Below, one piece after another: positions 2,039 to 48,817 of a stretch of DNA of 64,000 nucleotides (position 1 is its first letter; every line of letters begins with the position of its first letter). Origin of the DNA: Naegleria gruberi. Its lineage: Eukaryota. The stretch lies in the NCBI GenBank assembly GCA_000004985.1, contig GG738888.1; one strand, given 5' to 3'. The notes beneath the pieces were generated by a model. It did no database searches, had not been told where the DNA came from, and saw only the letters and a program-made list of their open reading frames with translations. The translations under genes were made by a program, and so were the position numbers.

Positions 2039-2485
2039 TTAGTATTCTTGTTGGTATTGTAAGAGTAAGCTGTACAGTTGAAGGAGAAAGATCATTTCTT
2101 GTTGATAGGTAGAATTATCCATTTGTTGATTTGTATTCGAAACTGTGAAATGCTGATGATCCACAGCATGTGTATTCATTTCATCTTGTCTATTTTCTTG
2201 ATTTCTCTCCTCAATACTATTCGATTCTCCAACTAGTCTAACATGTTGAGTTACCACACTATTTCCGATTTTAAACTCTTTATCTATTCGAAAGGTTGTC
2301 AATTGATCCTTCCTATTATCAAAAACAAAGTAATTCTTTAAAATTTCATCATTCTGTAATTGCTTTCTCAATCCTGGATATTTACTTTTTGGTTTCCTCT
2401 TGATAATCTTGTCTGTGGTCTTTACTGTTTCGTCTATTATCGAAAATTGTTTCGAACCTTTCTTCTGGTTTTGACCACTTGGCAT
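2039..2485 (-). CDS. Hypothetical protein (148 aa), paralog of the 502..954 gene (copy B)
   Basis: True ATG at 2485. The N-terminal ~85 aa align with the 502..954 product, and the C-terminus ends in the shared FLLQLY motif. Tandem arrangement in the same orientation. Confidence 0.5.
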   Translation of the reverse strand: MPSGQNQKKGSKQFSIIDETVKTTDKIIKRKPKSKYPGLRKQLQNDEILKNYFVFDNRKDQLTTFRIDKEFKIGNSVVTQHVRLVGESNSIEERNQENRQDEMNTHAVDHQHFTVSNTNQQMDNSTYQQEMIFLLQLYSLLLQYQQEY

Positions 2486-2923
2486 TGTTGTTTAATTTTT
2501 TATTGAATTACATCTCCTCACAGCGCTTTAGTTGAGGATTAGTTTCGTGAAAATATTATTTATTTGCAGACCGAAACCATGAAACCTCAAATTTGGTCAT
2601 TGATTTCCAAACTGTTATGAAATTGTAAAGATTATTTTTAATCTTACCCGTTTCTCTTGAGGATATTGCCTTTAAAAGTCGTTATAATGCAGTTTTATTC
2701 TATATGGAGTCCACATTGTCTTCAATCTTTCGAATATAGACTGTTCAGCATGATGATGAAATAGAAGTGTTTCAATAAACATTTAGCTAATCTTCAGCAT
2801 GTTGTGATGATTCTAGTTGGTTGTGGTGTAATTATGCAATTGAATACAATCAGCTCTATTATCCGTCTTCTTCAATGTGATGGAGAAATAGTAATTTTAG
2901 GAGAGCTTTTCGTTGTTCGTTGT

Positions 2924-2973
2924 NNNNNNNNNNNNNNNNNNNNNNNNNNNNNNNNNNNNNNNNNNNNNNNNNN
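2924..2973. other. Assembly gap (run of 50 N)
   Basis: Fifty consecutive n characters. The gap interrupts the ORF 2859..3269 on the minus strand. Confidence 0.95.
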
Positions 2974-3641
2974 ATTGAAACTCTTCTGTTTCTTAAAGTT
3001 TCGGATGATTTAGTTGCGACTGCATGCTGTTGATCCTGTCCATCGGCAGCTTGGTGTTGCTTAAGATGATATTGGTTCATTATTTTTGGTTGTTGATTGG
3101 TTTCGGCAAGATTACACTGGAAAGTTTGCATGGTTTCGGATTGTTGTGTTGGTGAAGGAAGTCGAAAGTGAACTTCATTTCTCTGAATCCCACTTTGAGG
3201 GTCTAAATTATTGTCTTCCAGACATGCACTAGAATCTAATGAGAAACTAGACGAAAGTTCATCATCCATTCTCTAAGAAAACCTCTTGGGAAGAATTTAC
3301 TTTTAATGTGTTGATTTGTTTTTTTCAAAGTGTTTTTATTGTAATACGAAAGGAACTTTGCGTTGCCAAACACCTAAACAATTTATGAAACCTGCCAAAC
3401 TGAAATTCTTGACCGAAGAATAGAATAATTTTATCTGAATGTGCTGAATAATGAAGTTAATGTTTGGCAGCCCCATTCCAATGTATTATGACAGGTTCGG
3501 TAACTTTGACAACTTCATTAGAATGTATTTAGTTTTCATAACCTCTCTATCCTAAATTGGTAATAGACAAATACGTTGAACAATAGCAATTGGTATAATA
3601 ATAACAACATTAAGAAGTTAACGAATTCGTTAGAAACAATT

Positions 3642-4169
3642 TTATTGATTATTCTTTGGGGGAATAAATTGACCAAACAAAGTTTCACTTAGAGAAAAAC
3701 CAGATTTCTGATAGAGAGCTTGAGCTTTCAGATTTTCATTCCTTACCAATAGACGAACACCTGCCATGTTTAAATTCTTTGCAATTTTCTTAGTTTCGTC
3801 CAGTAGAATACTAGCAATTCCACATCTCCTGAATTTTTCCCTCACAAACAATTCGTCCACATAGAGATAACCATTTTTCTTATTCAATTTTGGAAGAAAA
3901 CATAAACAAATAAATCCACACGCTTCTCTCTCATCATTTTCCACAATTAAGACCCAAAATGTATTGGAAATCATTCCAGTATTTTTCATGTTGTCGAGAA
4001 AGGATTCCAAATGAAGATTTGCATCTTCTTCCATTCGATTTTCCGACTCGAATTGTTCCTTTAATAATACAAGTAGATTTTCATGTAATTTGTTTTGGGT
4101 TGAGTGAATATTTTCATGGTTTGGATTAAGTGGTTGTAATTGATGTATTGTAAAGCTGTTTGATGACAT
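3642..4169 (-). CDS. GNAT-family N-acetyltransferase (~175 aa)
   Basis: Acetyl-CoA binding core LYVDELFVREKFRRCGIASILLDE...AKNLNMAGVRLLVRNENLKAQALYQKSGF (GNAT motifs A/B). The first real ATG is at 4169 (MSSNSF...); the ORF-track start at 4196 is a TTG. Confidence 0.75.
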   Translation of the reverse strand: MSSNSFTIHQLQPLNPNHENIHSTQNKLHENLLVLLKEQFESENRMEEDANLHLESFLDNMKNTGMISNTFWVLIVENDEREACGFICLCFLPKLNKKNGYLYVDELFVREKFRRCGIASILLDETKKIAKNLNMAGVRLLVRNENLKAQALYQKSGFSLSETLFGQFIPPKNNQ

Positions 4170-4430
4170 TTTTTTTTGAAGAATTTTGTTGAACAAATTT
4201 GTTGAATCTCATTTGCAATTATCATAATCAATTTGTACAATTTGCATTACTGTCGATATCACACAATGTATTTTTAATAAATATCATCAGATTCAGAGAA
4301 AAATTGAAACAAGTTGGCTTAATTTATTAAGGAATAGTTCTATGCTTAGTATTACTTAACAGCTCAACTATCAATTAAGCAGTATCGTTAATATGATTTC
4401 CGAAATTGAAAATAAAGTTAGAAAATTAAT

Positions 4431-6005
4431 TTATCTATTTGGTATGTGAGGTGTAAAGTCCAAATCTTGAACGTTATATTCAATCTTATGGATGGTTGTT
4501 TCATATCTATCACCATTCTTTGAAAAGAATGAATTATCCTTTACTCCAGAATAAGATGAATAGTCCACAATGGTGCTTCCCTCAGCATCTCCTGCAATAC
4601 AGAATGATCTGTCGAATGCTTTCAATAATTTATAATCTCCTTCACCTGCATCAGTTTCAAAATATCCTATCGAATTCAACCAGTGACAAAATTCATCCAA
4701 TGTTTTTCTATTCTCAAATATCATTGTATCCAATTTGGTAAATTCATTCTCGTAATCCAAATTTTGAATGAATGCCTTTAAAGTTTCAGTATAGTAGAAT
4801 TTTCTACTCGTGTTACCCTTCTTTAAATCGGAAAAGTAATTGTCAAAGGTCTTTCCACTTGGTCTACTCAATGAGAGAGCATCCAAAACTTGAGAGACAA
4901 AGTGTTGACAATTACAATCGAGTTGGCTATATGTCTTTTTAGCATTAAATGTACAACAAATATCTGTAATTTTCAAGAAGGCATCCATAATTTGATTCTT
5001 GGTTCTCAAAAAACCAAGATCAATAACAGCAATTGAATTGGATGATTCAATATTCTTATCAGTTCTAACACTAATCAGAGAGTTATTGTACCAATCAAAT
5101 TTCCACTCTCCAATCATGATTCCTGTATGGAGAATACCAAATTCAGTAGTAACAATCTTGGACAATACGCTTCTAATAAAATTATTTCCTTGCAATTCTG
5201 AAATGACCAATTTAACAGCAACATAAGGAGGCTTTTCCATCTTTCTTCTATTTGGATTTGCCAAAATTCTACTGCAAAATGTATTGTACAAGAATCTATC
5301 CTTGCATGTTAAATTTTGGGCATCCAAATCCAAATCACCAGTAAGATTAGCACTCTTGAATGATTTTCCTCTCTCATTGAGAGTCTTGTAATATTCAGAG
5401 AGATTCTTTTTACAATGTTCAATTCCTTGTTTCTCCCAATCATTAAGTTTTTCCTCATCAAATGGAGTTCTCGAATCAAAATCACTATCATCCGATGGTA
5501 AATGTACATTATTTGAATTAGTGCCAATATCACTCTGAGTTCCAGTCGTTGGAACAGAATCAAATTGATAAGCTGGATTATATCTCTGTTCCATTGCAGC
5601 AAAAGTATTCTTCCTACCAGAGCCATTCTCAATATCCTTTCTAATCTTGGCCTCAACCACTGAATCCACAAACGAACTCATACTTCCCTGATCAACATCA
5701 TATAATTTAGAAAGCCTTGCAATAATATATTGTTTTTCATCATCAATTGTTGAACGATCTCCGGTAACAATAGCCTTGGCCAAATCCTTAAAAACATGAC
5801 CATGAAACATTGTATTATTGATCAATAACTTCTCAATCAAGGAATTTTGATATTTAAATTCTCTCATCAGATTTATCAAATCATTATTATCACAATTATT
5901 AATTGGCTTATCAGTAATTGCTCGGGTTGGTACAGAATTTGCAGAATCGGAACCCTTTCCTACATTGAATGATTCGAGGGAATCTTGAGAAAAGTAATTG
6001 CCCAT
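4431..6005 (-). CDS. PPPDE (DeSI-like permuted papain-fold peptidase) domain protein with an N-myristoylation consensus, 524 aa (paralog 1)
   Basis: True ATG at 6005. The N-terminus MGNYFS fits the MGxxxS myristoylation consensus. The catalytic-dyad motifs G-I-L-H-T-G-I-M-I-GEWKFDWY and Y..L.CNCQHFVSQVLDAL resemble the DeSI1/2 motifs GIWHTSIVV and HNCNTFSNEVAQFL. There is a ~250 aa N-terminal extension. 55-60% similar to the 6853..8367 gene across the conserved regions. Confidence 0.7.
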   Translation of the reverse strand: MGNYFSQDSLESFNVGKGSDSANSVPTRAITDKPINNCDNNDLINLMREFKYQNSLIEKLLINNTMFHGHVFKDLAKAIVTGDRSTIDDEKQYIIARLSKLYDVDQGSMSSFVDSVVEAKIRKDIENGSGRKNTFAAMEQRYNPAYQFDSVPTTGTQSDIGTNSNNVHLPSDDSDFDSRTPFDEEKLNDWEKQGIEHCKKNLSEYYKTLNERGKSFKSANLTGDLDLDAQNLTCKDRFLYNTFCSRILANPNRRKMEKPPYVAVKLVISELQGNNFIRSVLSKIVTTEFGILHTGIMIGEWKFDWYNNSLISVRTDKNIESSNSIAVIDLGFLRTKNQIMDAFLKITDICCTFNAKKTYSQLDCNCQHFVSQVLDALSLSRPSGKTFDNYFSDLKKGNTSRKFYYTETLKAFIQNLDYENEFTKLDTMIFENRKTLDEFCHWLNSIGYFETDAGEGDYKLLKAFDRSFCIAGDAEGSTIVDYSSYSGVKDNSFFSKNGDRYETTIHKIEYNVQDLDFTPHIPNR

Positions 6006-6526
6006 CTCCGATGCTTGTTTTAAATATATTTAAATAAATAATAATAATTATAATATTATAATGTTGTTTGTGCTCTCTTGTTAGGAACAATGAATCGGTT
6101 GGTGCAGAGTTTGTGATTTTTTGTGTTTTTTCTTATTGATTTGATCTAATTAGAAGAGGAAGTAAACACGTGTTGGTTTTTTATGAGTTTTAATGAAAGA
6201 ATATTATCTTGACAAAAAAGTATCGATGTTCACGTTCTTTGAAACGTGATTCAAAGCTGTAGTTTGTTGTTTGACAGAAATGAAATGTGAATGCAGGATT
6301 GAAAATCATAAAATTACTCTTGTGCAATTTCTAGATATCCTCTACTTTGAACAAATTTTGGAAGATTTACAGAAGCAATAATTTTGGCTTGTTAATTTCA
6401 ATTCAAAAACCAAACAAAATTAATCTGAGGCTATTTTAAGAATAAATATAGAAGATAAGAGATTGATTTTACACCTCCTTATAGTAAAGACAAAATGGTA
6501 GCAGGAAATATACTAAAATAAAAAGT

Positions 6527-6607
6527 TGCAGAAGGTGGGATTTGAACCCACGAAGCTTGCGCAGTAGAACTTGAGTCTACCCCCTTTGACCACTCGGGAA
6601 CCCCTGC
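6527..6607 (-). tRNA. tRNA-Leu (anticodon CAA), type II with long variable arm, 81 nt
   Basis: The reverse complement reads GCAGGGGTTCCCGAGTGGTCAAAGGGGGTAGACTCAAGTTCTACTGCGCAAGCTTCGTGGGTTCAAATCCCACCTTCTGCA. It has a 7-bp acceptor stem, a GTGGG/TTCAAAT/CCCAC T-arm and a GTAGA-CTCAAGT-TCTAC anticodon arm (CAA). Confidence 0.9.
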
Positions 6608-6852
6608 TTCACATTTATTATCTTTAAATATGTTCTTCGTAAGTATGATCATTGTAAAATGGAAAAAGATGAAGAAAAGAACAGCGAATGGTGAGTGTGG
6701 AAGATTGTGAATATTAATTTGAAGAAATTGAGATCATACTGATGCATTGAAATACAGAGTTTAAATGGTGACAGTCAAACTTATTAATATCAAAGGGGAA
6801 TGACAGATTGAACATGAATAATATTTTGGCAGTTTTTCATCTTTATTGATGT

Positions 6853-8367
6853 CTATCTTTTGAGGAAATATTTTGACAAGTCCAAATCCTTTACATTGTA
6901 CTTGATATTGGTAATACTGGTATCATCATGAAGACCAGATTGAGAAAAGAATGCATTCTCCTTCTTGAATCCTTCCACAGAATAGTCAACCACGACCAAT
7001 CCATCTCTTCCCTTACCAGCAATTACAAACGATCTATCAAATGATTTAAGCAATTGATAATCTTCCTTTCCTTCTTCTGTTGTAAAATGACCTAAATCCT
7101 TGATAAAGAAACAGAATTCATCAAGATCTTTTCTACTTTCGAATTTGATTGACTTCTTTTTCTTGTAAATTGAATCTTGAGCTTTTTGAATCTTGTCAAT
7201 TAAAGCTGGGCTAAAGTAGAATTTTCTTGCCATATCTCCCTTCTTTAAATTTTTAAAATACTTTTCAAAGCACTTGGATTTTGGAGTGACAAGAGAAAGT
7301 GCATCCAAAAGTTCCGAAACAAAGTGTTGGCAATTACAATTCAATTGACCGTACTCCATAGTGGCATTGTATTTACAAACAATGTCTGAAATTTTGAAGA
7401 ATGCACTCAAAATTAAATTTTGATCAATCAGAGATCCCAAATCAATAACAGCAATTGCATTTCCAGAGCCAATATTCTTTTCCTTTCTAACACTGACCAT
7501 TGAATTGTCGTACCAATCGAATTTCCACTCACCAATCAATAATCCAGTGTGGAGGAGGCCAAATTCTGTATTCACTACTTTTGAGACAATGGATCTATAA
7601 ATTTCATTTCCCTCAATTTCTGAAATGATCAACTTAACTTGCATATATGGCTCAGAAGTCAAAACTCTCCTGCTTGAATTACTCAAAATTGGAGCACAGA
7701 ATGTGTTGAACATGAAACGATCTTTGCAGACCATATTTTGAGCATCCACTTCCAAGTCACCTATCAATCCACAAGTTTCGAATTTCTTCTTCTTCTCCTT
7801 CAAAAATTCATAATATTTTACCAAATTCTTCTTGACCTTTTCAATTCCTCTCTTCTCCCACTCGTTCAATTTATCTTGATCGTATGCAGTTGAAATGTTA
7901 TAAAAAGTTTGAGGAGTGACACCTGGATCCTGAGTCTCTGAATGCAAACTTGCTGTTGTTGTTGGAATGGATGAAATATTAATTTTCTTACTTGATGCAT
8001 TCGACACATCCCTTTTAATCTTTGTAATAACCACATTCTCAATAAAACGTGATAGCAAACTTTCCGTGATGGCATAACGAGTGGCATATCTGCTAGCCAA
8101 TCGGTCCCTTTCGTCTTCAATTTTTGATTGATTCTCCTCCAGTATTGGTGCAACAAGTGCAGAGAATATACTTCCAGACATGTCTTTTTCCTTGATGACA
8201 CTGGCCAATTTATTGCTCTTATCCTCGAATTTATAGTGTCTCAGAAGGACGAGCAAATCTTCAGCATCACATTCAGTGATTGGTTTGTTTACTACTTGGC
8301 TAATATCCACAGTAGAGGATTCAAATGATGCAGGCTTGGAGTCAAAAGATGAAGGTTTGCCACCCAT
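6853..8367 (-). CDS. PPPDE (DeSI-like) domain protein with an N-myristoylation consensus, 504 aa (paralog 2)
   Basis: True ATG at 8367. The N-terminus is MGGKPS. It shares motifs with the 4431..6005 gene: CKDRFMFNTFC, LLHTGLLIGEWKFDWY and CNCQHFVSELLDALSL. Confidence 0.7.
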   Translation of the reverse strand: MGGKPSSFDSKPASFESSTVDISQVVNKPITECDAEDLLVLLRHYKFEDKSNKLASVIKEKDMSGSIFSALVAPILEENQSKIEDERDRLASRYATRYAITESLLSRFIENVVITKIKRDVSNASSKKINISSIPTTTASLHSETQDPGVTPQTFYNISTAYDQDKLNEWEKRGIEKVKKNLVKYYEFLKEKKKKFETCGLIGDLEVDAQNMVCKDRFMFNTFCAPILSNSSRRVLTSEPYMQVKLIISEIEGNEIYRSIVSKVVNTEFGLLHTGLLIGEWKFDWYDNSMVSVRKEKNIGSGNAIAVIDLGSLIDQNLILSAFFKISDIVCKYNATMEYGQLNCNCQHFVSELLDALSLVTPKSKCFEKYFKNLKKGDMARKFYFSPALIDKIQKAQDSIYKKKKSIKFESRKDLDEFCFFIKDLGHFTTEEGKEDYQLLKSFDRSFVIAGKGRDGLVVVDYSVEGFKKENAFFSQSGLHDDTSITNIKYNVKDLDLSKYFLKR

Positions 8368-8789: not shown

Positions 8790-9536
8790 TTAATTCTTGG
8801 CAGCAGTAGCAGAAGATGTAGCTTGTTCTGCTTCTTCTGGCTTACCCATCATACCTCTGAGTGAATCAATCATATCTAATTGTCTTCTGATGGTATTATT
8901 GTGTTGTCTTCTCAACTTTCTAGCAGAAATCCAAGCCTTTCTAAACTTTCTCAAATTACCAACTTCCTTCTCCAAAATAGCTTGATATTCCTTCAACTTG
9001 GCTGTAGCAGTCTCATAGGTTGTTTGTTGTTCTGTTGTTGTTGTGGATGATCTCTTCTCATATCGGGCCACATACTTTTTATAAATTCTTTGTGCCTTCT
9101 TGTAAGCCTTCTTCTTCTCAACAACCTTCTTATGAGTCTCCTTAACACGTCTGTTCAATTTTTTGTAGCGTTTTTCCAAGCGCGCCAAAGTCTTTCTCAA
9201 ACGTTCCTCAACACGAGTCAAGTGCATGTGCAAGGATTTGCTCTCCTCCGTTGCCAAATATTTGGATGATGAACCTGATGATGAGAATTTCTTCAATAAT
9301 TTAATGAGGGTCTTTTTCATGCGTTTTTGAGAGCGGATGGTTCGTTTCTTGTGGACCACACGAATATTTTCCTTTTTTGCCTCCACAAAATTTATTGTTG
9401 CTGTTGTAGAGAGAAGCACGACCATCAGGAAGAGAGCAATGGTGAGGAAGGTCAAGATGAAAAACTTGTTGCTTCTCATTGTGATGCTCTGACTGCCGTT
9501 GGATGAGATGTGATGTGGCAGCGAGGTGATAATCAT
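8790..9536 (-). CDS. Secreted/membrane-anchored Lys/Arg-rich coiled-coil protein (248 aa)
   Basis: ATG at 9536, with a second ATG at ~9479 (MRSNKFFILTFLTIALFLMVVLLSTTA) that begins a signal-peptide-like hydrophobic segment. The remainder is a highly basic heptad-like sequence (KRYKKLNRRVKETHKKVVEKKKAYKK...). Confidence 0.5.
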   Translation of the reverse strand: MIITSLPHHISSNGSQSITMRSNKFFILTFLTIALFLMVVLLSTTATINFVEAKKENIRVVHKKRTIRSQKRMKKTLIKLLKKFSSSGSSSKYLATEESKSLHMHLTRVEERLRKTLARLEKRYKKLNRRVKETHKKVVEKKKAYKKAQRIYKKYVARYEKRSSTTTTEQQTTYETATAKLKEYQAILEKEVGNLRKFRKAWISARKLRRQHNNTIRRQLDMIDSLRGMMGKPEEAEQATSSATAAKN

Positions 9537-10930: not shown

Positions 10931-11001
10931 TCGGGTGTGGTATAGTGGTAGCATTCCAGACTGTCACTCTGGCGACCCGGGTTCAATTCCCGGCACTCGA
11001 G
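10931..11001 (+). tRNA. tRNA-Asp (anticodon GTC), 71 nt
   Basis: TCGGGTGTGGTATAGTGGTAGCATTCCAGACTGTCACTCTGGCGACCCGGGTTCAATTCCCGGCACTCGAG. It has a 7-bp acceptor stem, a CCGGG/TTCAATT/CCCGG T-arm and an anticodon stem CCAGA/TCTGG with loop CTGTCAC (GTC). Confidence 0.9.
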
Positions 11002-15412: not shown

Positions 15413-15485
15413 GCTGGCGTAGCTCAGTCGGTAGAGCGTTGGTCTAATAAGCCATTGGTCGCCGGTTCGATCCCGTCCGTCAGCA
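15413..15485 (+). tRNA. tRNA-Ile (anticodon AAT), 73 nt
   Basis: GCTGGCGTAGCTCAGTCGGTAGAGCGTTGGTCTAATAAGCCATTGGTCGCCGGTTCGATCCCGTCCGTCAGCA. It has a canonical D-arm (GCTCAGTCGGTAGAGC) and an anticodon loop CTAATAA. It is close to eukaryotic tRNA-Ile-AAT. There is one C-U mismatch in the T-stem. Confidence 0.88.
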
Positions 15486-36923: not shown

Positions 36924-39900
36924 TTAATGGTCGTGTTCTTGTGACTTTTTCAATTCCTTCATATAATCCAATTCTCCCATGACAATTGATCTCAAATAGG
37001 AAGCGTTATTTCTTCCAGTTTCCTCAATCAAAGAAGCAAAGATGGATTGTTCACTTCTGGTGAGCAAGTTTCTTGGAGTATCGAATTCAGCTAATTGACC
37101 TGCCTTCAAAGCAACAATTCTATCAGAGTCAATGATAGTGTTGAGTCTGTGAGCAACTGTCAAGACAGTTCTGTCAGAGAATTCAGTTCTAACAGTTTCT
37201 TGAAGAAGGGCATCAGTTTGCATATCAACATTGGCAGTAGCTTCGTCCATGATAAGAATCTTGGTCTTTCTCAAAATTGCTCTGGCAACACAGATTAATT
37301 GTCTTTCACCAATAGAAAAGTTTTCACCATATTCAGCAACCTTGTAAGAAAGTTGACCTTCCAATGACTTGATCTTTTCCTTAATGTGAGATCTTTCCAA
37401 AGCTTGCCAAATTTGTTGATCAGTATATTCATCAAATGGATCCAAATTGAATCTGACAGTTCCTGAGAATAAAATTGGATCTTGAGGAATAATTGCCAAT
37501 TTAGATCTGAGATCATGTAAACCAATCTTGGAAATATCTACACCATCAACAACAATTTGACCTTGAGCTACTTCTGTAATTCTGAACAGAGCTTGCATTA
37601 AGGTTGATTTACCACAACCAGTACGTCCCACAATACCAATCTTTTCAGTTGGGTTTACATGGAGGCTGAGATCTCTCAACACAAAGTCGAGTTCTTCTCT
37701 GTACTTGAAGTAGACGTTTTTGAGTTCAATTTCACCCTTTTGTGGCCATTCTTCAGCTGGCTTGGTTTCTGGAATACTCTTTGGAGCTTCTTGTGGAATT
37801 TCTTCACAATAGTAGAGAACTCTTTCAACAGAGTTCATGGCAGCTTCAGCTTCTGTTGCACAACGAACCAACCAAGAGGCAGTCGAAGTAACAGAAAGAG
37901 CATATGACAATGACAGACCAGCCATAGCAGCTGTTGTACCTCCAACTAGGGCAGCAAGTGCAGCAAATAGAATAACTACAGCTCCCACCAATTCCAAACG
38001 GAAAGCCAACCATCTTTGAGAAACAAGTTGAGCAAAGTAGGCCTTGTTATTTCTGTCCAATAACTTGTGATTTTCCAATACGAATTCTTCTTGTCTTCTG
38101 TATGCTCTAATAGTGGCAATACCAGTGAGGGTTTCACCAAAGTGTGCAAAGAGTGGACTTCTACTGATGGAATCAAGTCTCTTCAATTCACGAGAAGTAC
38201 TTCTGTAATACTTTTGAACAAAATAGTAAACCAACAAGACTGGAATAATTGGAATGATGAAAAGATAACTGACAGTAGCAATCAAAATCAAAGTACCCAA
38301 TACTGAAAAGATGCAATTCAGCAACATTCTCAAAGTACCGATAAGACTTCCGTCAATACTTTCAGTATCCTTAGAGAATCTGTTAATAATACGACCGACT
38401 GGATTGGTGTCAAAGAAATGAGTTGGTGAGTTCATAATCTTATCCAAAGCCTTGGAGTGCAATTGTTTGGCAGCTCTAAGACCAGAAAAACCAAAGGAAA
38501 GTTCTTGGAAGAACATAAAGACGGCACTTCCAACACCCAAAGCAACGTAAATACCAATAAACATTGGCAAATTGTAGCCTAATTCGGTAGGAGTGGCTGG
38601 TAGAGTGCCATTAGTAGCATTATTGACATCATAAGATGAGAATACGGTATCAAAGAGTTCAGTGGAGTTGTACATTGTACTATTGGATGCAGTACCATTG
38701 GTTGGCAGTATACTTTGTGTGGCAATAGTTGACCATTCAGCCAAGAACCAAGATGTCATAATTTGAGAAGCCTGATTCAATGTAAAGAGTAAAAGAATGG
38801 CCAACAAGACAATATAACCACCAGCATATCTAATATAACTCTTATAAACACTAGCCTTGACACTACCTTCAGCACGTTCCTCAGTAGACATTAATTTACC
38901 ATCTCTCTTCTTGATACTCTTTTCTCCTTCTTCTTCCTTTTCTTTCTTTTCTTCAGTTTCTTCTTCCTTGTCTTGCTTGAAATAGCTCTTGAGCATGGAA
39001 GAGAACTTGGAATCACTTTGAACTAATTCAGAGTGAGAGCCTTGAGCAACAATGGCACCATTTTCAACCACAATTACATGATCAGCATCCTTCAAATATT
39101 GCCATTGGTGAGTGACTAATACACGAGTCTTGTTTGATAATAATCCACAAATACAATTTTGGAATACAGATCTACCAACATGTTGATCCAATGCAGAGAG
39201 AACGTCATCGAATAAATAAACATCAGCATCAGAGTAAACTGAACGAGCTAAAGAAACTCTTTGCTTTTGACCACCTGACAAAGTGATACCCTTTTCACCA
39301 ATTTCAGTCATGTCTCCGGCTGTTAAAATTTCCAAATCATTTTCCAAGCAACAAGCTTCAATAGTCTTGTAATATTTTTCAGTATTGAAAGGATTTCCAA
39401 ACAAGATATTATCTCTTACAGTGGCATTTCTAATCCAGGCTTGTTGAGGAACATAGGCAACACTACCAGAAACTTGGAGGTTTCCTGATTGTTTGAACAT
39501 TTCACCGATAATTGCTGACAAGAGTGATGATTTACCAGAACCAACCAGACCCACAATAACAACCAAATCACCCTTCTTGACTTGAAGGTTAACATGTTGA
39601 AGTGTGAAGTCTTTCTTTTCTGGTGCTGATGCCTTTTCCTTATCATCTACAAATTGCAATTCACCTTCAGAAGCTTCTACTACCTCTTCCTCTTCTTCCT
39701 CACCTTCAGCAAGTTCAATAGTGACTTGATCTGCTTCTGCTTCTTCTTCATCTTCAAATTCATTGTACTTTTTCTTTTCAGTCTTTGATCCCTTACTCTT
39801 GGTCTTTGATTTGAGAGTAGGTTGAGCTGGCTTTTTGGCTTCAGGCTTCTTCTTATCCTTGCTTGCTGGTTCTTCCTTCTTTTCTTGGTTGGACTTCCAA

Positions 39901-41510
39901 ATAAAGGTACCATCTTCAATAATAATTGGACAATCAATATCAGATCCTAAAGTAATATCCTCAATTTCATCGGCAAGTAAATAGTTTTGAAGTCTGTCCA
40001 AACTGACCTTAGCTTCAGCAAGGAGGGCAAGAATAGTTGGCAAGAAGGTAGCTGGGAATCTCAACAAGTTGAAATAGGAAAGGGATGGGAAAATAATGTC
40101 AGCATCCAACAATCCACCAGTGGCAGCAAAGATAGCAAAAGTGGCAACACCGACAAACAATGGAGCCATAGTCATTAACATACTGGTAACAATACCAATA
40201 AATGTTGATTGAGTAATCTTCCACATTTCCTTATTTCTGATTTCCATAATCTTTTTTACAAATGAATTTTCCCAAGCATAGAATTTGATAATTCTAATAC
40301 CTTGAATAGCTTCATTAACAAACTTGATACGTTCACCAGTAAATTGAAGCATGGCCTTACGAATTTTTTGAACTACTCTGGCAATAGCACCATTTAAGGG
40401 AATAACAACAACAATAATAGCAACACCAGCTAAGGTTGACCAACCAATGAGTGAGAATAACATCGCCAAGCATACAAAAATTTGGAAAACACCACTCCAT
40501 GTCATGTGTAGATATGTCACTAGACCACAAAGCTTGTTAGCATCAATTGCCATATAATTGATAATATCACCAGAACTGATTTTTTGTCTTGCTGAATTGG
40601 ATAACCTTAAACTCTTTGCATAGATGGCAGCACTCAACCCTGTCTTGAGACGCATACCTTGTGACATGACAATGTGGAAATATTGTTGAATAAATAAAGT
40701 ACTAAATGTTTGAAGAAGGAAAAGCCCTAAAACTAATAAATAACCCTGATAAACTGGAACTGTCTCGGAATCTCTAATTGTTGAAATGATCATCTTTACC
40801 AAAATTGGACTGGTCAATTGAGAAATATCGTAGACAACTTTTAACAAACCAGCCAAGTAAAATCTGAGACCATATGTCTTGTGAATTGCATAAATTAAAC
40901 TTGGTTTGGATTGTTTTTTCTTCTTAATATTTTCATCGAGTTCGTGTGACTCGACATCTTGATGATCTTTTGCTTTGGCTGCTTCCTTGTCCCAATTCTT
41001 CTTAAAGTCATCGGAAAGGTATGCAGCTTCATCAACTTTTCTCAATTTATACAGATCAGATAATTGAAGAACCTTATTGTAACCAGTTTTCATCAATGGA
41101 TTAAACCACCAAAATGATAATCTGGAGAAGATGTTTGCTGTTTCTTCAGGACAGTCTTGTCTATTTTGTGTGTTTTCATTGAAAGAATTTATCAATGATG
41201 ATGAAAATGACAGGTATAATGATGATGGTATAATGATGACAATAAATACTAATTAGAAAACTAATAAATTACAAAATAAAACATACTGATGCTCCTCTGC
41301 AATTTGAAATTCATCCACTTCTTGAACATCTCTAAAGTATTGATCAACATTTTCAGCCATCTTTTTAGGCTCCGAAGCTTCTTCTTCAGTTTCTTTAAAA
41401 GCCAATTGAGGATTCATCACTGTAGGTTGTGAAGCTGTTCCTCTCGTAGCAACATTAGTAAAAACACCACCACCATCATTCTTATTGTATGTCGGCGATG
41501 GTTGCATCAT
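36924..41510 (-). CDS. ABC transporter, C subfamily (MRP-type, 'short' form TMD1-NBD1-TMD2-NBD2), 2 exons, ~1497 aa
   Basis: Exon 1 is 41287..41510, with ATG ATG at 41510 (MMQPSPTYN...). The 126-nt intron at 41161..41286 runs GTATGT...AAAATAG. Exon 2 is 36924..41160. The join gives ...AEEHQ-QDCPEETANIFSRLSFWWFNPLMKTGYNK, the typical ABCC N-terminus. There are two NBDs with Walker A (GLVGSGKSSL, GRTGCGKST), ABC signatures (LSGGQKQRVSLAR, FSIGERQLICVAR) and Walker B (DDVLSALD, IMDEATANVD). Confidence 0.9.
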
Positions 41511-42762: not shown

Positions 42763-45700
42763 ATGAGTAGAAATCGCAAATCCACCAACACTGAAATCAT
42801 TGAAGATGAGTCCCAATATAAAATCAAAGTCAATGATGATGTTTGGTTACCACTTTCTTCAACAGCTTCAAATACAAGTGAACCTAATACACCAACAACA
42901 CCATCCGTAGTAGATTCTGGTGCTGAAGCTTTCCAATTGGCACGTGTCGTTTCAATTGATGAATCAAAACAAACAGCAGTCTGTGAAAATTCACTTACAA
43001 AACAACAAGAAACTTTTAAATTGACTCAACTCTCACCATCAAATCCACTCAAATTAGATTATGCTTTGGATATGGCCAGTTTATCTCATTTGAATGAACC
43101 ATCTGTATTACACAACCTCAAATTGAGATATACTAGAGATGATATCTATACATATTCTGGCTTGTTCTTGTTGGCTGTAAATCCATATAAGAATTTGCCA
43201 ATCTATACAAATGAGGTGATTAAAAAACACTCTGGAAAGAGGAGAGAAGATGTTGATCCTCACATCTTTACCGTTGCTGATGTTTCCTATAGACAAATGT
43301 TGTTGAATGAGAAGAATCAATCCATGTTGGTTACAGGTGAATCAGGTGCTGGTAAAACTGAATCAGGTATGTTATTTTCAATATTCAATCAGTTTTTTTT
43401 ATATTAATATCTATTCTATTTGATTTAATTACTAATTGTATTTTTTTTACAATATTTTGTAATAATTTTTAACAAATTGTAAAATATTCAATAATACTAC
43501 AGTCAAAAAGATTATTCAATATCTTGCAACTGTTGCTGGTGCAACAAGCCACGCTTCATCAGGAGGTGGTAACTTGGAGCAAAAACTCTTACAAACCAAT
43601 CCATTGTTGGAAGCTTTTGGTAATGCTAAAACTATTAGAAACAACAATTCTTCTCGTTTTGGTAAATTCATTTCCATTGATTTTGGTCTTCAAGGATACA
43701 TTGTTGGTACTAAAATTACTCACTATCTCTTGGAAACCACTCGTGTTATTTCACAAGCTAGTAATGAACGTAACTTCCACTTTTTCTATCAAATTTTAGC
43801 CGATCCAGAATCATGTAAAAAGTACAAACTCACCTCTGGTGTTAATTCATTCCATTTTGTAAATCAATCAGGTTGTACTCACGTTCCTGGTATTGATGAT
43901 AAGAAGGAATTCCAAGATACACTCAATTCTATGCGTGTTATTGGTATTAATGAAGATGAAATTGATGCTTGTTGTAGAGTTATTGCTGCCATTCTTCATT
44001 TTGGTAATATTGAATTCAAGAATAATGAAGATGAATTGTCAACTTTGCCAGATCGTTCATGTTTGGAAGTTGCTGCTGAATTGGTTAAGGTCAATCCAGA
44101 TGGTTTAGCTAAAGGTTTCATGAAACCAGATATTATTACTCCAACTGATCGTATTGAAACTCACGTTACTGCACTTCAAGCTTCTTACAATAGAAATGCT
44201 TTGGTTAAATCAACTTACAATCGTTTGTTTGATTGGCTCGTTTCTCGTATCAATGAAAATTTGATTGCCAGAGAAAGTATCAAGAATTTCATTGGTTTGT
44301 TGGATATTGCTGGTTTTGAAATTTTCGAAAACAACAGTTTCGAACAATTGTGTATCAACTTTACTAACGAAAAATTGCAACAATTCTTCAATCATCACAT
44401 GTTCAAGAAGGAACAAGAAGAATATTTGAAGGAAAAGATTGAATGGACATTTATTGATTTTGGTTTGGACTTGCAACCAACTATTGATTTGATTGAAAAG
44501 CCATTGGGTATCTTGTCAATTTTGGACCAACAAACTTTCATGGCTCAAAAGAATGAAGCTGGTCTCGTTCGTGAAATTACCAAGAATCATGGTACTAAAC
44601 CAATTTTCGAAACTTCCAAGTTTAATGAATTGGAATTCACCTTGAAACACTATGCTGGTAAAGTTATCTATGACACCAATGATTGGTTCAAACGTAACGT
44701 TGATCCATTGAATGATGATTGTAAGAAGGCAATGCTTCAATCCTCAATTCCATTCGTTAAGGCTCTTTACAATAGAGCTTCTGATCGTGAAGAATCTTCA
44801 AACTCTGGTAAGAAGCAACAAGGAGCTGGTACTCGTTTCAAGACTGTATCTGCTCAATACAAGCAACAATTGACTGAATTGATGGAATTACTCGGCTCTA
44901 CTGAACCACACTTTATTCGTTGTATCAAACCAAACAATTTACAAAAGCCAGGTATTGTTGAAGATAACAATGTTCTCCATCAATTGAGATGTAACGGTGT
45001 CTTGGAAGGTATCAGAATTTCAAGAAAGGGTTATCCAGGTAGAATCTTGTACAAGGACTTTGTCAGACGTTATGAATTATTAGTTGAAGATCGTACCAAA
45101 TTACTCTCTGATAAGAATGCCACTGATAAGGAGAGAACCAAGGCAATTTTGGAATATATCGAATTCGAAGAAACCAAGCAATATAAACTTGGTCTCACTA
45201 AGGTCTTTTTGAAGTCCTCACAAGAAGCTGAATTGGAAAGCTTGAGAGAAGTTCAAATTTCAAAGATTATTGGTGTTGCTCAAGCTGCTGCTTTGGCTGG
45301 ATATGAAAGAGCTTGTTACAAAAAGTTACAAAGAAGATTGTTGAGTATCAAGACCATTCAAAGAAACTTCAGAGGTTATACCAAGTTGCGTGAATGGGAT
45401 TGGTGGAAGTTGTTGGCAATTGTCAAGCCACTCTTGAAGGAATTCGCTTCTGAGAAACAAACTGAAAAGTTGAAGCAAGATCTCGTTGATTTGCAAGAAG
45501 CTGTCAAGAGAGAACAAGAAGATAAGAAGAAGATTGAATTGGAAAGACAAAAGATGATTCAAGAACGTGATGTTGCCAAGGAAGCACTCAAAGCAGCTCA
45601 CAATGAATTCGAAAAGGTAACTGCTCAAGTCAGAAGTCTTGAACAAGCTGGATCTGAAAAAGATCAAAACATTCGTTCATTGAAGGATGATGGTGAATAC

Positions 45701-48700
45701 AAACAAAGCACCATCAATGATTTGAACAAAACCATTCAAAATCTTGAAGAAGCTATCAAGGTTATGAATGAAAAGATTCACAATTTGGAACAAGAAGTCA
45801 GATCTAGAGATGTCCAATTGAAACAAAAGCAAACTGATATTCAAAATCGTGAAAATGACATTGAATTTTTGAGAAAGAAGCAAAAGGAATTGGAAGGAAC
45901 TGTTTCTGAATTGGAAAACAAGTTGATCGTCGCTGGTAATGAAGTTTCAAGCAGAGATCAAAAGATCATGTTATTGGGCTGTGAATTGGAAGATGAAAGA
46001 TCAAGACTCACCTCCGAAAATAAGACTAGATCTCTTAAGGAAGAAGATTTGAGAAAGTCTGAACAAGCCAACAAGAAACTCAGCCAAGATATTGAACAAC
46101 TCCAAAAGGAAGTTGAAGATTTGACTTTGGATTTGAACAAGACCAAGGTTGAAAAGACCAATTTGATTGATGACACTGAAAGAAAGCAAAAGCAAATTGA
46201 AGAACTCAATAGAAAGCTTGAAAGTGCTCAACAATCTGCTCGTGACTTGCAATACAAGTTGGATAATGAACAACAAAACTTGAAGAGTTCTGAAACTAAG
46301 GGTAAGAGCTTGTCTGGTGATTTGGAATCTGCCACTTTGAGAATTCAATCATTGACTGAAGAAATTCAAGGTTTGGAAGAAACTGTTGCCACTCAAAAGT
46401 CTCAAATCTCTCAACTTACATCCAAGATTGCTACCTTGGAAGAAGTTGAACTCAGATCTCGTGATGCCAAGATTAGAGAACTTGAAAACAACTTGCAAGA
46501 ACAAAAGCAAAGATTTGAAAATGAACTCAACCTCAAGGTTACTGAATTGCTCAGATTGAAGCAAAAGACTGACCAAGAACGTGTTGAAGCTGAACAAGTT
46601 CAATCCAAGTTGACTCAAGAAAAGAAGGATCTCAATGAAAATGCCAAGAATCTTGAAAAGGAAATCAAGAAGCTCCAAAAGACTATTGATGCCACCAATC
46701 AAGAAAAGAATGACGTTTTGCAAAAGGCTCAAAAGTTAGATTCTGGACTCAACCAAGCCAGTGATGAAAAGGAACAACTCCAAAAGAAGGTTCAAGAACT
46801 CGAGAATACCATCAGACAACTCACTCAAGACAAGAATCGTATTGAATTGGACTTGCAATCCACCAATGAAAAGTTGGGCATGACTTCATCAAAGCTTGAA
46901 CAAGTCACCAATGAATTGAACACTGAAAAGAGACGTGCTGAAAAGCTCGAAAGCGATGTTGAAGATTTGGAAAAGGACAAGAGCTCATTGAATGATCAAT
47001 TGACTAAGGCCAGAACTGAACTCGAAAATGAAAAGTCATCCACCTTAAAGTTGAAGGGCGAACAACAAAAGTTGGCCAACGACATTGAAAATTCCAAGTT
47101 GGAAAAGGTCTCCTTGTCAAAGGATAAGGATGAACTCAACTTTGAATTGAACAGATTGAAGGAAAGATTAACTCAACTCGAAAAGGAGAAGGAAAATGAA
47201 GCTTCCGAAAAGTCTCAAGCTCAAAAGAAGGCTACTTCATTGGCTAAGGAAATTGAAAAGCTCCAACAACGTATTGGTGAATTGGAAAATTCAGTCAAGT
47301 CTGAACAATCATCCAAGAGTGAAGTTGAAGGTGATGCCAAGAAGAAGGACTCAGCTCTCAAGGAAGCTAATGAAGAAATCTCTCATTTGAAGAGCAAGTT
47401 GACTGCTGTTCAACAAGAACACGAATTGGCTAAACGTCAAGTTGATGAAGAAGTCAGAAAGGCTGCTCAAATCAGAAATGAACTCAAGGACGTTCAACTC
47501 AAATCTAAGGATGCTTCTGCTGAAAGAGATGATTTGGAAGATGAAATTTCCAAGTTGACTTCTGAAATCAATGAATTGAACTTGAAGCTCCAAGATGCTG
47601 AAAGAAAGACTTCTGACGAACAAAGAAATGCTCAACAACTCGAAGAAGAAATTGAAAGAATTCGTCAAAATGCCTCCAGATCCAGAGAAGAAGTTGAAAA
47701 TGACAATAGACTCTTGAAGCAACAAATGACCTCTCTCACTCAACAAAGTGAAGGTTTTGGTCGTGAACTCAACGATCAAATTCTCAAGTTGAAGCAAGAA
47801 AACTTAAAGCTCAAGAAGGATTTGAAGAATGCCAAGAAGGAAACTCAACCAACTGATGCTGTCGATTCTCAATTAGTTGAAGGTTTGAAGAGAAAGTACG
47901 AAATTGAAGCATCCAACCTCAAATCACAAATTGAACAATTGAGTCTCTTGAAGCACAATTTGGATAACAAGAATATCACAATTGAACAAGAAAACTTGTT
48001 ACTCAAGGCCAGACTCGAAACTGAAGAAAAGCTCAAGAATAAGTTCAAGTCTCAAAAGGAACATGCCGAAAGAGAAATTGATGAATTGAGAAGTATTGCT
48101 GAAGAAACTGAAGATTTGAGAGATGAATTGATCAAGATGAGATCTGAATACCAATTAACCATTAGCAAGTTGCAATCTGAACTTTCTGATGAAAAGGAAA
48201 GATATAACACTTTGGATAAGGTTCTCTTACAAACTCGTAAGGATTTGGATCAAGTTAAACTCGATTTGGTTAGTGAACGTAAAAAGTTGGATCTTGGAAG
48301 TCTTTCTGCCAAGCAACATTACGAAATGGAAATGGCCAATCTCAATCAACTTATCCAAGAATTGAGAAAGGACAAGGTTGACTTGGTCAAGCAAGAAAAG
48401 AAGACTGCTCAAAAACTTGCCGATTTGAAACGTGATTTGCAAGAAGAAATTTCATCCAAGCAAGAATTTGAAAAGAGAGCTTCCAAAGCTGAACGTGAAT
48501 CTCGTTTGTCCAACTTGAATTTACAAGAAAGTGAAACCAAGTATAGACGTGTTGAATCTGAAAAGAAGAGACTTGAATTGGAAGATACCATGAATCGTGA
48601 TCAAATCAAACAACTTGAAAATGAAATTGATAGTTTGAGAACTCAATTGAGACAAGAAAAGATCAAGTCTTCTGCCAAGACTGAAAAGAAGAAGAGAAAG

Positions 48701-48817
48701 AATCAAGTCAAGAAGGTTCTTGCTGATTTGGAAGATGATTTGCAAAGTGGATTATTGAAGGAAGATGATGAAACTGTTGCTGCTGATTCATCTGCTCCAG
48801 TTGAAGCTGAAGAATAA
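42763..48817 (+). CDS. mhcA: Myosin II heavy chain (conventional myosin), 2 exons, ~1972 aa
   Basis: True ATG at 42763 (the track start at 42706 is not ATG). Exon 1 (42763..43366) ends inside the P-loop GESGAGKTES. The 136-nt AT-rich intron at 43367..43502 runs GTATGT...TACAG. Exon 2 (43503..48817) continues VKKIIQYLATVAG. It contains LEAFGNAKTIRNNNSSRFGKF, FNHHMFKKEQEEYLKEKIEWTFIDFGLD, IQ motifs, and a >1100 aa heptad-repeat coiled-coil tail. The head is most similar to Dictyostelium mhcA. Confidence 0.92.

What the first reader, a model, noticed from the sequence alone, without database searches (positions are those of the whole stretch)
4431..8367. Tandem pair of N-myristoylated PPPDE (DeSI-like) peptidase-domain paralogs flanking a tRNA-Leu gene
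Two ~510-aa proteins (4431..6005 and 6853..8367, both on the minus strand) share the PPPDE catalytic His motif (LHTG[I/L][M/L]IGEWKFDWY) and Cys motif (CNCQHFVS). Both carry a perfect MGxxxS N-myristoylation start (MGNYFS, MGGKPS) and an unusually long, conserved ~250-aa N-terminal extension. Canonical PPPDE proteins (DeSI-1/2, deSUMOylating/deubiquitinating isopeptidases) are ~170-200 aa and are not myristoylated. A membrane-tethered, extended PPPDE subfamily that has been tandemly duplicated around a tRNA gene is not a standard architecture, and the extension may be an uncharacterised regulatory or substrate-binding domain.
Basis: partly seen in the sequence, partly recalled or inferred. Interest (0 to 1): 0.55.

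Follow-up and report, generated by a model that had tools for sequence, protein, structure and literature searches.

The report
Myristoylated SAM–PPPDE-like hydrolase gene pair
Two neighbouring Naegleria gruberi genes encode divergent relatives of the DeSI/PPPDE cysteine hydrolases with a lipid-anchor signal and a SAM-like domain; they belong to a large, undescribed family found only in heterolobosean amoebae, and the tRNA gene between them is incidental.

Summary
There are two intact minus-strand ORFs (524 and 504 aa, 44% identical, E 7e-153), and a genuine tRNA-Leu(CAA) lies between them. The window is Naegleria gruberi.

The N-terminal "extension" is a myristoylation-consensus tail, a divergent SAM-like domain, a disordered linker and a helical hairpin.

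The pair belongs to a large family (782 clusters at 50% identity). Every member with a named source is heterolobosean. Some members carry N-terminal SAM, PX, PH, C2 or kinase domains; 31% start with MG, mostly MGxxxS.

The tandem-plus-tRNA layout is not conserved, even in a relative whose protein is 80% identical.

Likely function: membrane-recruited cysteine hydrolases. The substrate, S-acyl thioester or SUMO/ubiquitin isopeptide, is unresolved.

The parts
4431..6005 (-). Paralogue 1 (NAEGRDRAFT_80841), 524 aa: myristoylation-consensus tail, SAM-like domain, linker, helical hairpin, PPPDE-like core, C-terminal helical domain, tail
   Evidence: ORF. It is 100% identical to the N. gruberi protein P0001, which UniRef names 'PPPDE domain-containing protein'. 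Full-length AF2 model.
5988..6005 (-). Paralogue 1 N-terminus MGNYFS (Gly2, Asn3, Ser6): N-myristoylation consensus
   Evidence: Read from the sequence. Gly2 is present in 9 of 10 subfamily members. 76 of 244 family proteins start with MG, and 49 of those have Ser6.
5622..5903 (-). Paralogue 1 divergent SAM-like helical domain (about residues 35-128)
5454..5621 (-). Paralogue 1 low-complexity, predicted disordered linker (residues 129-184)
   Evidence: pLDDT <50 for residues 129-176. This is the gappy, poorly conserved region of alignment A1.
5256..5453 (-). Paralogue 1 helical hairpin before the catalytic domain (residues 185-250; WEKxGI...DAQNxxCKDRF)
   Evidence: Helices 189-211 and 225-249, pLDDT 76-89. 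Invariant L187, E191, Q230, C234, D236 and F238.
4860..5234 (-). Paralogue 1 PPPDE-like permuted papain-fold catalytic domain (residues 258-382). Codons: His293 5127-5129, Tyr359 4929-4931, Cys366 4908-4910
4590..4853 (-). Paralogue 1 family-specific C-terminal helical domain (residues 385-472; G397, F430, D437, LLKAFDRSF 460-468)
   Evidence: pLDDT >90 in the core model. Residues are 87-100% conserved over 204 cores. No convincing structural match.
4434..4589 (-). Paralogue 1 subfamily-specific C-terminal tail (residues 473-524; FF...YNVxDL)
   Evidence: Conserved within the subfamily. Low model confidence, pLDDT 51-81.
6527..6607 (-). tRNA-Leu(CAA), an independent Pol III gene lying between the paralogues. 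It is not part of the protein system.
   Evidence: ARAGORN. Rfam RF00005 at 48.7 bits. T-run immediately 3'. Absent next to orthologues in three other genomes.
6853..8367 (-). Paralogue 2, 504 aa, same architecture. N-terminus MGGKPS at 8350-8367; SAM-like 7996-8280; hairpin 7678-7875; PPPDE-like 7282-7656 (codons His273 7549-7551, Tyr339 7351-7353, Cys346 7330-7332); C-terminal helical domain 7015-7275
   Evidence: ORF, equal to P0002. 44% identical to paralogue 1. Domain mapping. dN/dS 0.16 against the 80%-identical orthologue in L003. No Pfam hit above E = 0.1.

Best explanation
The two genes encode paralogous cysteine hydrolases of the PPPDE (DeSI / peptidase C97) branch of the circularly permuted NlpC/P60 papain-like fold.

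Shown:
- The fold matches DeSI-1.
- A His-Tyr-Cys catalytic centre is present (His293/Tyr359/Cys366 in paralogue 1; His273/Tyr339/Cys346 in paralogue 2). It has the same Tyr-to-Cys spacing as PPPDE1 and is conserved across the family.
- The Cys sits at the N-terminus of a helix that follows the His-bearing strand.
- Paralogue 2 is under purifying selection.
- The pair belongs to a large family whose named members are all heterolobosean. The family's invariant unit is the PPPDE-like domain plus a C-terminal helical domain.

Inferred:
- After Met removal, Gly2 is N-myristoylated.
- Together with a divergent SAM-like domain (a possible oligomerisation module that would multiply weak single-myristate anchors), this brings the enzyme to a membrane surface.
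- Other family members achieve the same recruitment with PX, PH or C2 domains.
- At the membrane, Cys366 is activated by His293 and attacks an acyl bond on a membrane-proximal substrate through a thioacyl-enzyme intermediate.

Best guess for the bond (inference only): an S-acyl (palmitoyl-type) thioester on a membrane protein. This follows the in-vitro thioesterase activity reported for PPPDE1, PPPDE2 and CLN5. A SUMO or ubiquitin isopeptide bond is nearly as likely.

The tRNA-Leu between the genes and the tandem arrangement have no functional role.
For: Fold and catalytic centre:
- Foldseek's top two hits are the two PPPDE crystal structures.
- A 36-sequence core profile has DeSI-1 as its best PDB hit. 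The alignment spans the whole domain and pairs GxFHT with GIWHT and Y-x6-C (YxxxxxNCQHF) with YNLFEHNCNTF.
- The PPPDE1 centre is His38-Tyr101-Cys108 (PMC9012467).
- H293, Y359 and C366 are 98-100% conserved over 204 cores.
- Helix 365-376 starts next to Cys366, and strand 293-298 starts at His293.

Sequence support:
- The N. gruberi paralogue P0004 passes the PF05903 gathering score (43.4 bits).
- 16 of 102 family members hit PF05903 at E<=0.01, against 2 for LRAT.

Membrane recruitment:
- MGNYFS and MGGKPS fit the NMT consensus.
- 76 of 244 members start with MG, and 49 of those have Ser6.
- Family members carry SAM, PX, PH, C2 or kinase N-termini.
- Many combine MGxxxS with a bona fide SAM domain.

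Selection and substrate:
- dN/dS is 0.16.
- PPPDE1, PPPDE2 and CLN5 show palmitoyl-thioesterase activity in vitro (PMC9012467).
Against: - Sequence-only support is weak. PF05903 scores 19.8 bits against a 29.2 cut-off for paralogue 1, and paralogue 2 has no hit. The best profile E-value against PDB is 0.14.
- Myristoylation rests on consensus only. The N. fowleri and N. lovaniensis orthologues have Trp at position 6 (MGQSNW, MGQSYW), which is a poor NMT context.
- Neither N-terminus has a second membrane signal such as Cys or a polybasic stretch.
- The SAM assignment is marginal (hhalign probability 53%; no Pfam hit).
- Nothing tested here separates thioesterase from isopeptidase activity. The thioesterase precedent used artificial substrates.
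- The closest characterised relatives, DeSI-1 and DeSI3a, are described as deSUMOylases.
Confidence: 0.45

Rival explanations
1. The proteins are membrane-recruited ubiquitin-like-modifier isopeptidases (deSUMOylases or deubiquitinases). They would work like DeSI-1, DeSI-2 and plant DeSI3a, removing SUMO or ubiquitin from membrane-proximal signalling proteins.
For: The closest solved structure and sequence relative is DeSI-1. The C97 family is described as deubiquitinases/deSUMOylases (PMC10318531). Plant DeSI3a is membrane-bound and deSUMOylates the kinase domain of FLS2 (PMC6759571). One N. gruberi paralogue fuses a protein kinase domain to two of these modules, which suggests signalling control.
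Against: PPPDE1 and PPPDE2 were reported to have only weak SUMO/Ub protease activity but high palmitoyl-thioesterase activity (PMC9012467). From my own knowledge, not tested here, the family's accessory domains (PX, PH, C2, SAM, myristate) are typical of lipid-interface enzymes rather than of known deubiquitinases. Identity to DeSI-1 is only 24%, and the extra C-terminal domain has no counterpart in DeSI.
Confidence: 0.3
2. The proteins are lipid-directed acyl-enzymes, either phospholipase A or acyltransferase/transacylase. They would resemble PLAAT/LRAT or CLN5 and act on membrane glycerophospholipids rather than on proteins.
Confidence: 0.12
3. The tandem pair and the intervening tRNA-Leu form a functional or conserved unit, meaning a duplication organised around the tRNA gene.
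For: The arrangement is real in this genome. The family often duplicates locally: several paralogues lie on single N. lovaniensis and W. magna contigs.
Against: N. lovaniensis and W. magna orthologues are single genes with no tRNA within 10 kb. In a Naegleria relative whose protein is 80% identical, the paralogue-2 orthologue is followed directly by the homologue of the window gene at about 2326-3269, without the tRNA, paralogue 1 or the GNAT gene. The paralogues are only 44% identical, so the duplication is old. No repeats flank the block. The window holds three tRNA genes, so they are dispersed here.
Confidence: 0.03
4. The proteins are catalytically dead scaffolds that kept only the fold.
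For: None specific. Pfam scores are low.
Against: His, Tyr and Cys are 98-100% conserved over 204 divergent cores and present in both paralogues. dN/dS is 0.16.
Confidence: 0.03

Closest known systems
DeSI-1 / DeSI-2 (PPPDE2 / PPPDE1; MEROPS C97; Pfam PF05903; PDB 2wp7, 3ebq)
   Same: Circularly permuted papain-like fold. The beta1 motif is similar (VKLxVxxL). The His-Tyr-Cys centre has identical Tyr-to-Cys spacing. These are the best structural and profile matches.
   Different: Identity is only 24%. The window proteins fall below the Pfam gathering score or are not hit at all. They are about 3 times longer. They have an N-terminal myristoylation consensus, a SAM-like domain and a helical hairpin. 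They also have a conserved ~90-aa C-terminal helical domain (LLKAFDRSF) with no DeSI counterpart.
Arabidopsis DeSI3a (membrane-bound PPPDE-type deSUMOylase)
   Same: It is a PPPDE-type enzyme that works at the plasma membrane on signalling proteins (PMC6759571). It shows that membrane association of this fold is not unprecedented.
   Different: It is a short canonical PPPDE protein. It was not compared directly here. Nothing read here shows that it has the SAM-like or C-terminal domains or the same anchoring mode.
CLN5 (PPPDE-like lysosomal cysteine thioesterase)
   Different: Identity is only 14%. CLN5 is a luminal glycoprotein, not a cytosolic myristoylated protein. Its C-terminal domain is beta-sheet plus helices, not the helical domain seen here.
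LRAT / PLAAT (H-REV107) acyltransferase-phospholipases
   Same: Permuted NlpC/P60 fold. The Cys lies in an NC[E/Q]HF motif. They act at membranes.
Other members of the same heterolobosean family (for example N. fowleri FDP41_008848 and N. lovaniensis C9374_012279, which UniRef names 'SAM domain-containing protein')
   Same: Same core (PPPDE-like plus C-terminal helical domain). Many have the same MGxxxS-SAM-linker-core layout.
   Different: Their SAM domains pass Pfam thresholds, and most end in a CxCPFxDP motif. The window subfamily has a degenerate SAM, an extra helical hairpin and a different C-terminal tail.

Membership tests
PPPDE / Peptidase C97 (Pfam PF05903) | Score at or above the Pfam gathering threshold (29.2 bits) | tested here: not met
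   Paralogue 1 scores 19.8 bits (E 7.5e-4). Paralogue 2 has no hit. The N. gruberi paralogue P0004 does pass (43.4 bits over two modules). 16 of 102 family members hit at E<=0.01. UniRef already names paralogue 1 'PPPDE domain-containing protein'.
PPPDE / Peptidase C97 (Pfam PF05903) | Circularly permuted papain-like fold: the His-bearing beta-sheet comes before the helix that carries the catalytic Cys at its N-terminus | tested here: met
PPPDE / Peptidase C97 (Pfam PF05903) | His-Tyr-Cys catalytic centre (PPPDE1 His38, Tyr101, Cys108) | tested here: met
   The profile alignment pairs family H, Y and C with the DeSI-1 residues, and the Tyr-to-Cys spacing is 7 in both. The residues are 98-100% conserved.
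PPPDE / Peptidase C97 (Pfam PF05903) | Isopeptidase or thioesterase activity that depends on the Cys | not testable with these tools
   Needs biochemistry.
N-myristoylated proteins (NMT substrates) | Gly2 after the initiator Met, an uncharged residue at position 3, a small residue (preferably Ser) at position 6, and no Pro at position 7 | tested here: met
   MGNYFSQ and MGGKPSS. The start is the first in-frame ATG after a stop, and public gene models give the same N-terminus. Gly2 is present in 9 of 10 subfamily members. 76 of 244 members start with MG, and 49 of 76 have Ser6.
N-myristoylated proteins (NMT substrates) | Actual attachment of myristate by the organism's NMT | not testable with these tools
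   No predictor or proteomic data were available. That Naegleria has an NMT is assumed from general knowledge, and the literature search gave nothing specific.
SAM domain (Pfam PF00536 / PF07647) | Pfam SAM model hit | tested here: not met
   No SAM hit for either window protein at E<=1. 13 of 102 family members do hit SAM_2.
SAM domain (Pfam PF00536 / PF07647) | Compact helical bundle of about 70 aa that superposes on SAM domains, with homology to the bona fide SAM domains of relatives | tested here: inconclusive
LRAT / PLAAT (Pfam PF04970) | NCEHF Cys, two catalytic His residues, a C-terminal membrane anchor and a Pfam hit | tested here: not met

The most novel reading that the evidence does not exclude
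The pair belongs to a large, lineage-specific and so far undescribed enzyme family of Heterolobosea. In it, a PPPDE-like Cys-His-Tyr domain is fused to a new C-terminal helical domain and sent to different membranes by interchangeable modules (myristate+SAM, PX, PH, C2, kinase). The family could be a diversified set of cysteine-based 'erasers' of protein S-acylation, or of another acyl-type mark. That would make it a lineage-specific counterpart of the serine-hydrolase depalmitoylases of animals.
Probability: 0.25. Interest if true: 0.6.

Novelty: new variant of a known kind. Interest (0 to 1): 0.4.

Why it matters
The physiological substrates of PPPDE/DeSI enzymes are still disputed: SUMO, ubiquitin or S-acyl groups. 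This family is large and naturally diversified, and its members are explicitly addressed to membranes by myristate, SAM, PX, PH or C2 modules. That makes it a useful comparative handle on what the fold does at membranes. The genus includes the pathogen N. fowleri, and no named member was found outside Heterolobosea. The result also marks a gap in Pfam coverage: the conserved core and its C-terminal domain have no model.

Tried and rejected
- The full-length family profile against PDB sequences found nothing relevant. Only the trimmed core profile put DeSI-1 first, at E 0.14.
- The afdb50 fold library was unavailable, so no AlphaFold-database neighbours were obtained.
- Model coordinates are not exposed, so the catalytic geometry could not be measured.
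- A third large homology search with the core profile added few proteins and no new named taxa.
- Literature searches linking PPPDE with Naegleria or Heterolobosea, DESI2 with myristoylation, and Naegleria with NMT found nothing pertinent.
- I looked for repeats or mobile-element signatures around the GNAT-paralogue 1-tRNA block. Only the paralogous core repeat (300 nt, 71%) turned up.
- No synteny was found between the window and the N. lovaniensis or W. magna loci.
Full report
**Source and observation**

The window is Naegleria gruberi. ORF 4431..6005(-) is 100% identical to NAEGRDRAFT_80841. Neighbouring ORFs encode typical eukaryotic proteins: a myosin head, an ABC transporter, beta-mannosidase domains and a GNAT.

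Both ORFs exist as described, at 524 and 504 aa. Each begins at the first in-frame start codon after a stop. They are clear paralogues, with 44% identity over 517 aa and E 7e-153. Both contain the two quoted motifs.

The tRNA-Leu(CAA) at 6527..6607(-) is genuine. ARAGORN finds it, Rfam scores it 48.7 bits, and a T-run follows it. No third family copy lies in the window.

**Is it a PPPDE domain?**

By Pfam alone the claim is weak.
- Paralogue 1 scores 19.8 bits on PF05903, against a cut-off of 29.2.
- Paralogue 2 has no hit.
- A full-length family profile finds nothing in the PDB.

Other evidence agrees on the assignment.
- An N. gruberi paralogue (P0004: kinase plus two of these modules) passes PF05903 at 43.4 bits.
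- PF05903 is the most frequent catalytic-domain hit over 102 family members: 16 hits, against 2 for LRAT and 1 for TseH.
- A 36-sequence core profile ranks DeSI-1 (2wp7) first in the PDB. The E-value is only 0.14, but the alignment spans the whole domain. It pairs GxFHT with GIWHT and Y-x6-C (YxxxxxNCQHF) with YNLFEHNCNTF.
- The PPPDE1 catalytic centre is His38-Tyr101-Cys108 (PMC9012467). Here it is His293-Tyr359-Cys366, with the same seven-residue Tyr-to-Cys spacing.
- These three residues are 98-100% conserved over 204 family cores.
- The full-length model gives the same order. Foldseek's top two hits are the two PPPDE crystal structures.
- In the models, Cys366 sits at the start of a helix that follows the His-bearing strand. 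That is the permuted papain-like topology.

**Anatomy of the rest of the protein**

- a disordered N-terminal tail (residues 1-29);
- a helical domain (about 35-128);
- a disordered low-complexity linker (129-180);
- a helical hairpin (185-250) with invariant residues.

It is modelled at pLDDT above 90 and has no convincing structural relative. A subfamily-specific tail follows it.

**The family**

An exhaustive profile search found 782 cluster representatives at E<=1e-3. The shared region is the PPPDE-like domain plus the C-terminal helical domain.

Every member with a named source is heterolobosean:
- N. gruberi, N. fowleri and N. lovaniensis;
- Willaertia magna;
- Acrasis kona;
- Percolomonas cosmopolitus;
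- Pharyngomonas kirbyi.

The rest come from unnamed metagenome or transcriptome contigs, so lineage restriction is likely but not proven.

N-terminal regions vary. They include SAM, PX(+SAM), PH, C2 and a protein kinase.

Of 244 fetched members, 76 start with MG, and 49 of those have Ser at position 6. Many combine MGxxxS with a Pfam-positive SAM domain. The window pair is therefore a divergent version of a common family layout. The myristoylation consensus is a family trait, not a coincidence.

No paper in the searchable library connects PPPDE with Heterolobosea.

**The tandem arrangement and the tRNA**

- N. lovaniensis and W. magna orthologues are single genes in different neighbourhoods. 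Neither has a tRNA within 10 kb.
- A contig from a close Naegleria relative (SRR21279712) carries the orthologue of paralogue 2, which is 80% identical at the protein level.
- On that contig, the orthologue of the window's coiled-coil gene (8790-9536) is followed by the paralogue-2 orthologue. Next comes the homologue of the window gene at about 2326-3269. There is no tRNA, paralogue 1 or GNAT gene in between.
- A neighbour-joining tree places the duplication before that species split. It also places the duplication after the split from the N. fowleri/N. lovaniensis clade (no support values).
- The ~3.5-kb block of GNAT, paralogue 1 and tRNA was therefore either inserted in N. gruberi or deleted in the relative.
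- No flanking repeats were found.
- The layout is real but lineage-specific, and I regard it as incidental.
- Paralogue 2 is under purifying selection, with dN/dS 0.16.

**Mechanism**

Shown: an intact, conserved Cys-His-Tyr centre on a DeSI-like fold, a conserved NMT consensus, and membrane- or signalling-type accessory domains across the family.

Inferred: the enzymes are recruited to membranes by myristate. This may be reinforced by SAM-mediated oligomerisation, because neither N-terminus has a second membrane signal. Once there, they hydrolyse an acyl bond through a Cys366 thioacyl intermediate.

The substrate is the open question.
- I lean slightly towards S-acyl thioesters. PPPDE1, PPPDE2 and CLN5 are efficient palmitoyl thioesterases in vitro but weak SUMO/Ub proteases (PMC9012467). 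From my own knowledge, PX, PH, C2, SAM and myristate are the accessory repertoire of lipid-interface enzymes.
- A SUMO or ubiquitin isopeptidase role is nearly as likely. DeSI-1 is the closest relative, and plant DeSI3a is a membrane-bound deSUMOylase of receptor kinases (PMC6759571; PMC10318531).
- A lipid acyltransferase or phospholipase role is less likely.
- A dead-scaffold role is unlikely.

**Verdict**

This is a new variant of a known kind. The enzyme fold is known, and automatic annotation already labels one of the two proteins as a PPPDE protein. The family itself is undescribed and specific to this lineage, and it has its own C-terminal domain and modular membrane addressing. Interest is moderate at 0.4. 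The tRNA-flanked tandem arrangement, which motivated part of the original score, is not significant.

Noticed in passing
window 3300-6850, compared with L003 2455-2982: The block holding the GNAT gene (3642-4196), paralogue 1 and tRNA-Leu is absent at the syntenic site of a close Naegleria relative (SRR21279712 contig). There the paralogue-2 orthologue is followed directly by the homologue of the window gene at about 2326-3269. The difference is an insertion or a deletion of about 3.5 kb.
   Followed up: partly
window 2924-2973: A run of 50 N (assembly gap) interrupts a minus-strand gene at about 2326-3269. The ORFs listed there contain X residues.
   Followed up: no
P0004 (N. gruberi, 893 aa; not in the window): This paralogue has MGSSHS, a protein kinase domain and two tandem PPPDE-like modules in one polypeptide. 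It is the only family member examined that clears the PF05903 gathering score.
   Followed up: partly
Family members P0027-P0146: Most distant family members end in a conserved Cys-containing motif (CxCPFxDP) after FDRAFWLR. The window subfamily lacks it and has a different tail (FF...YNVxDL). The function of either tail is unknown.
   Followed up: no
P0003 (N. fowleri) and P0006 (N. lovaniensis): The orthologues keep Gly2 but have Trp at position 6 (MGQSNW, MGQSYW). This departs from the NMT consensus, so myristoylation may not be conserved in the pathogenic lineage.
   Followed up: no
one search hit list: Several family paralogues lie on single contigs: N. lovaniensis C9374_014329/014344/014374/014376/014400 and W. 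magna ABK040_011914/011921. This suggests repeated local duplication. One A. kona member is named 'peptidyl-tRNA hydrolase', which is probably a misannotation.
   Followed up: no
window 10931-11001 and 15413-15485: There are two more tRNA genes (Asp-GTC and Ile-AAT). With three tRNA genes in 64 kb, tRNA genes are dispersed among protein-coding genes here.
   Followed up: no
window 43574-48817 (+) and 36924-41195 (-): One long ORF has a myosin motor domain followed by a long tail (1747 aa as listed, and the head is truncated at the ORF start, so an upstream exon is likely). The other is a full-length ABC transporter with two transmembrane and two ATPase domains.
   Followed up: no
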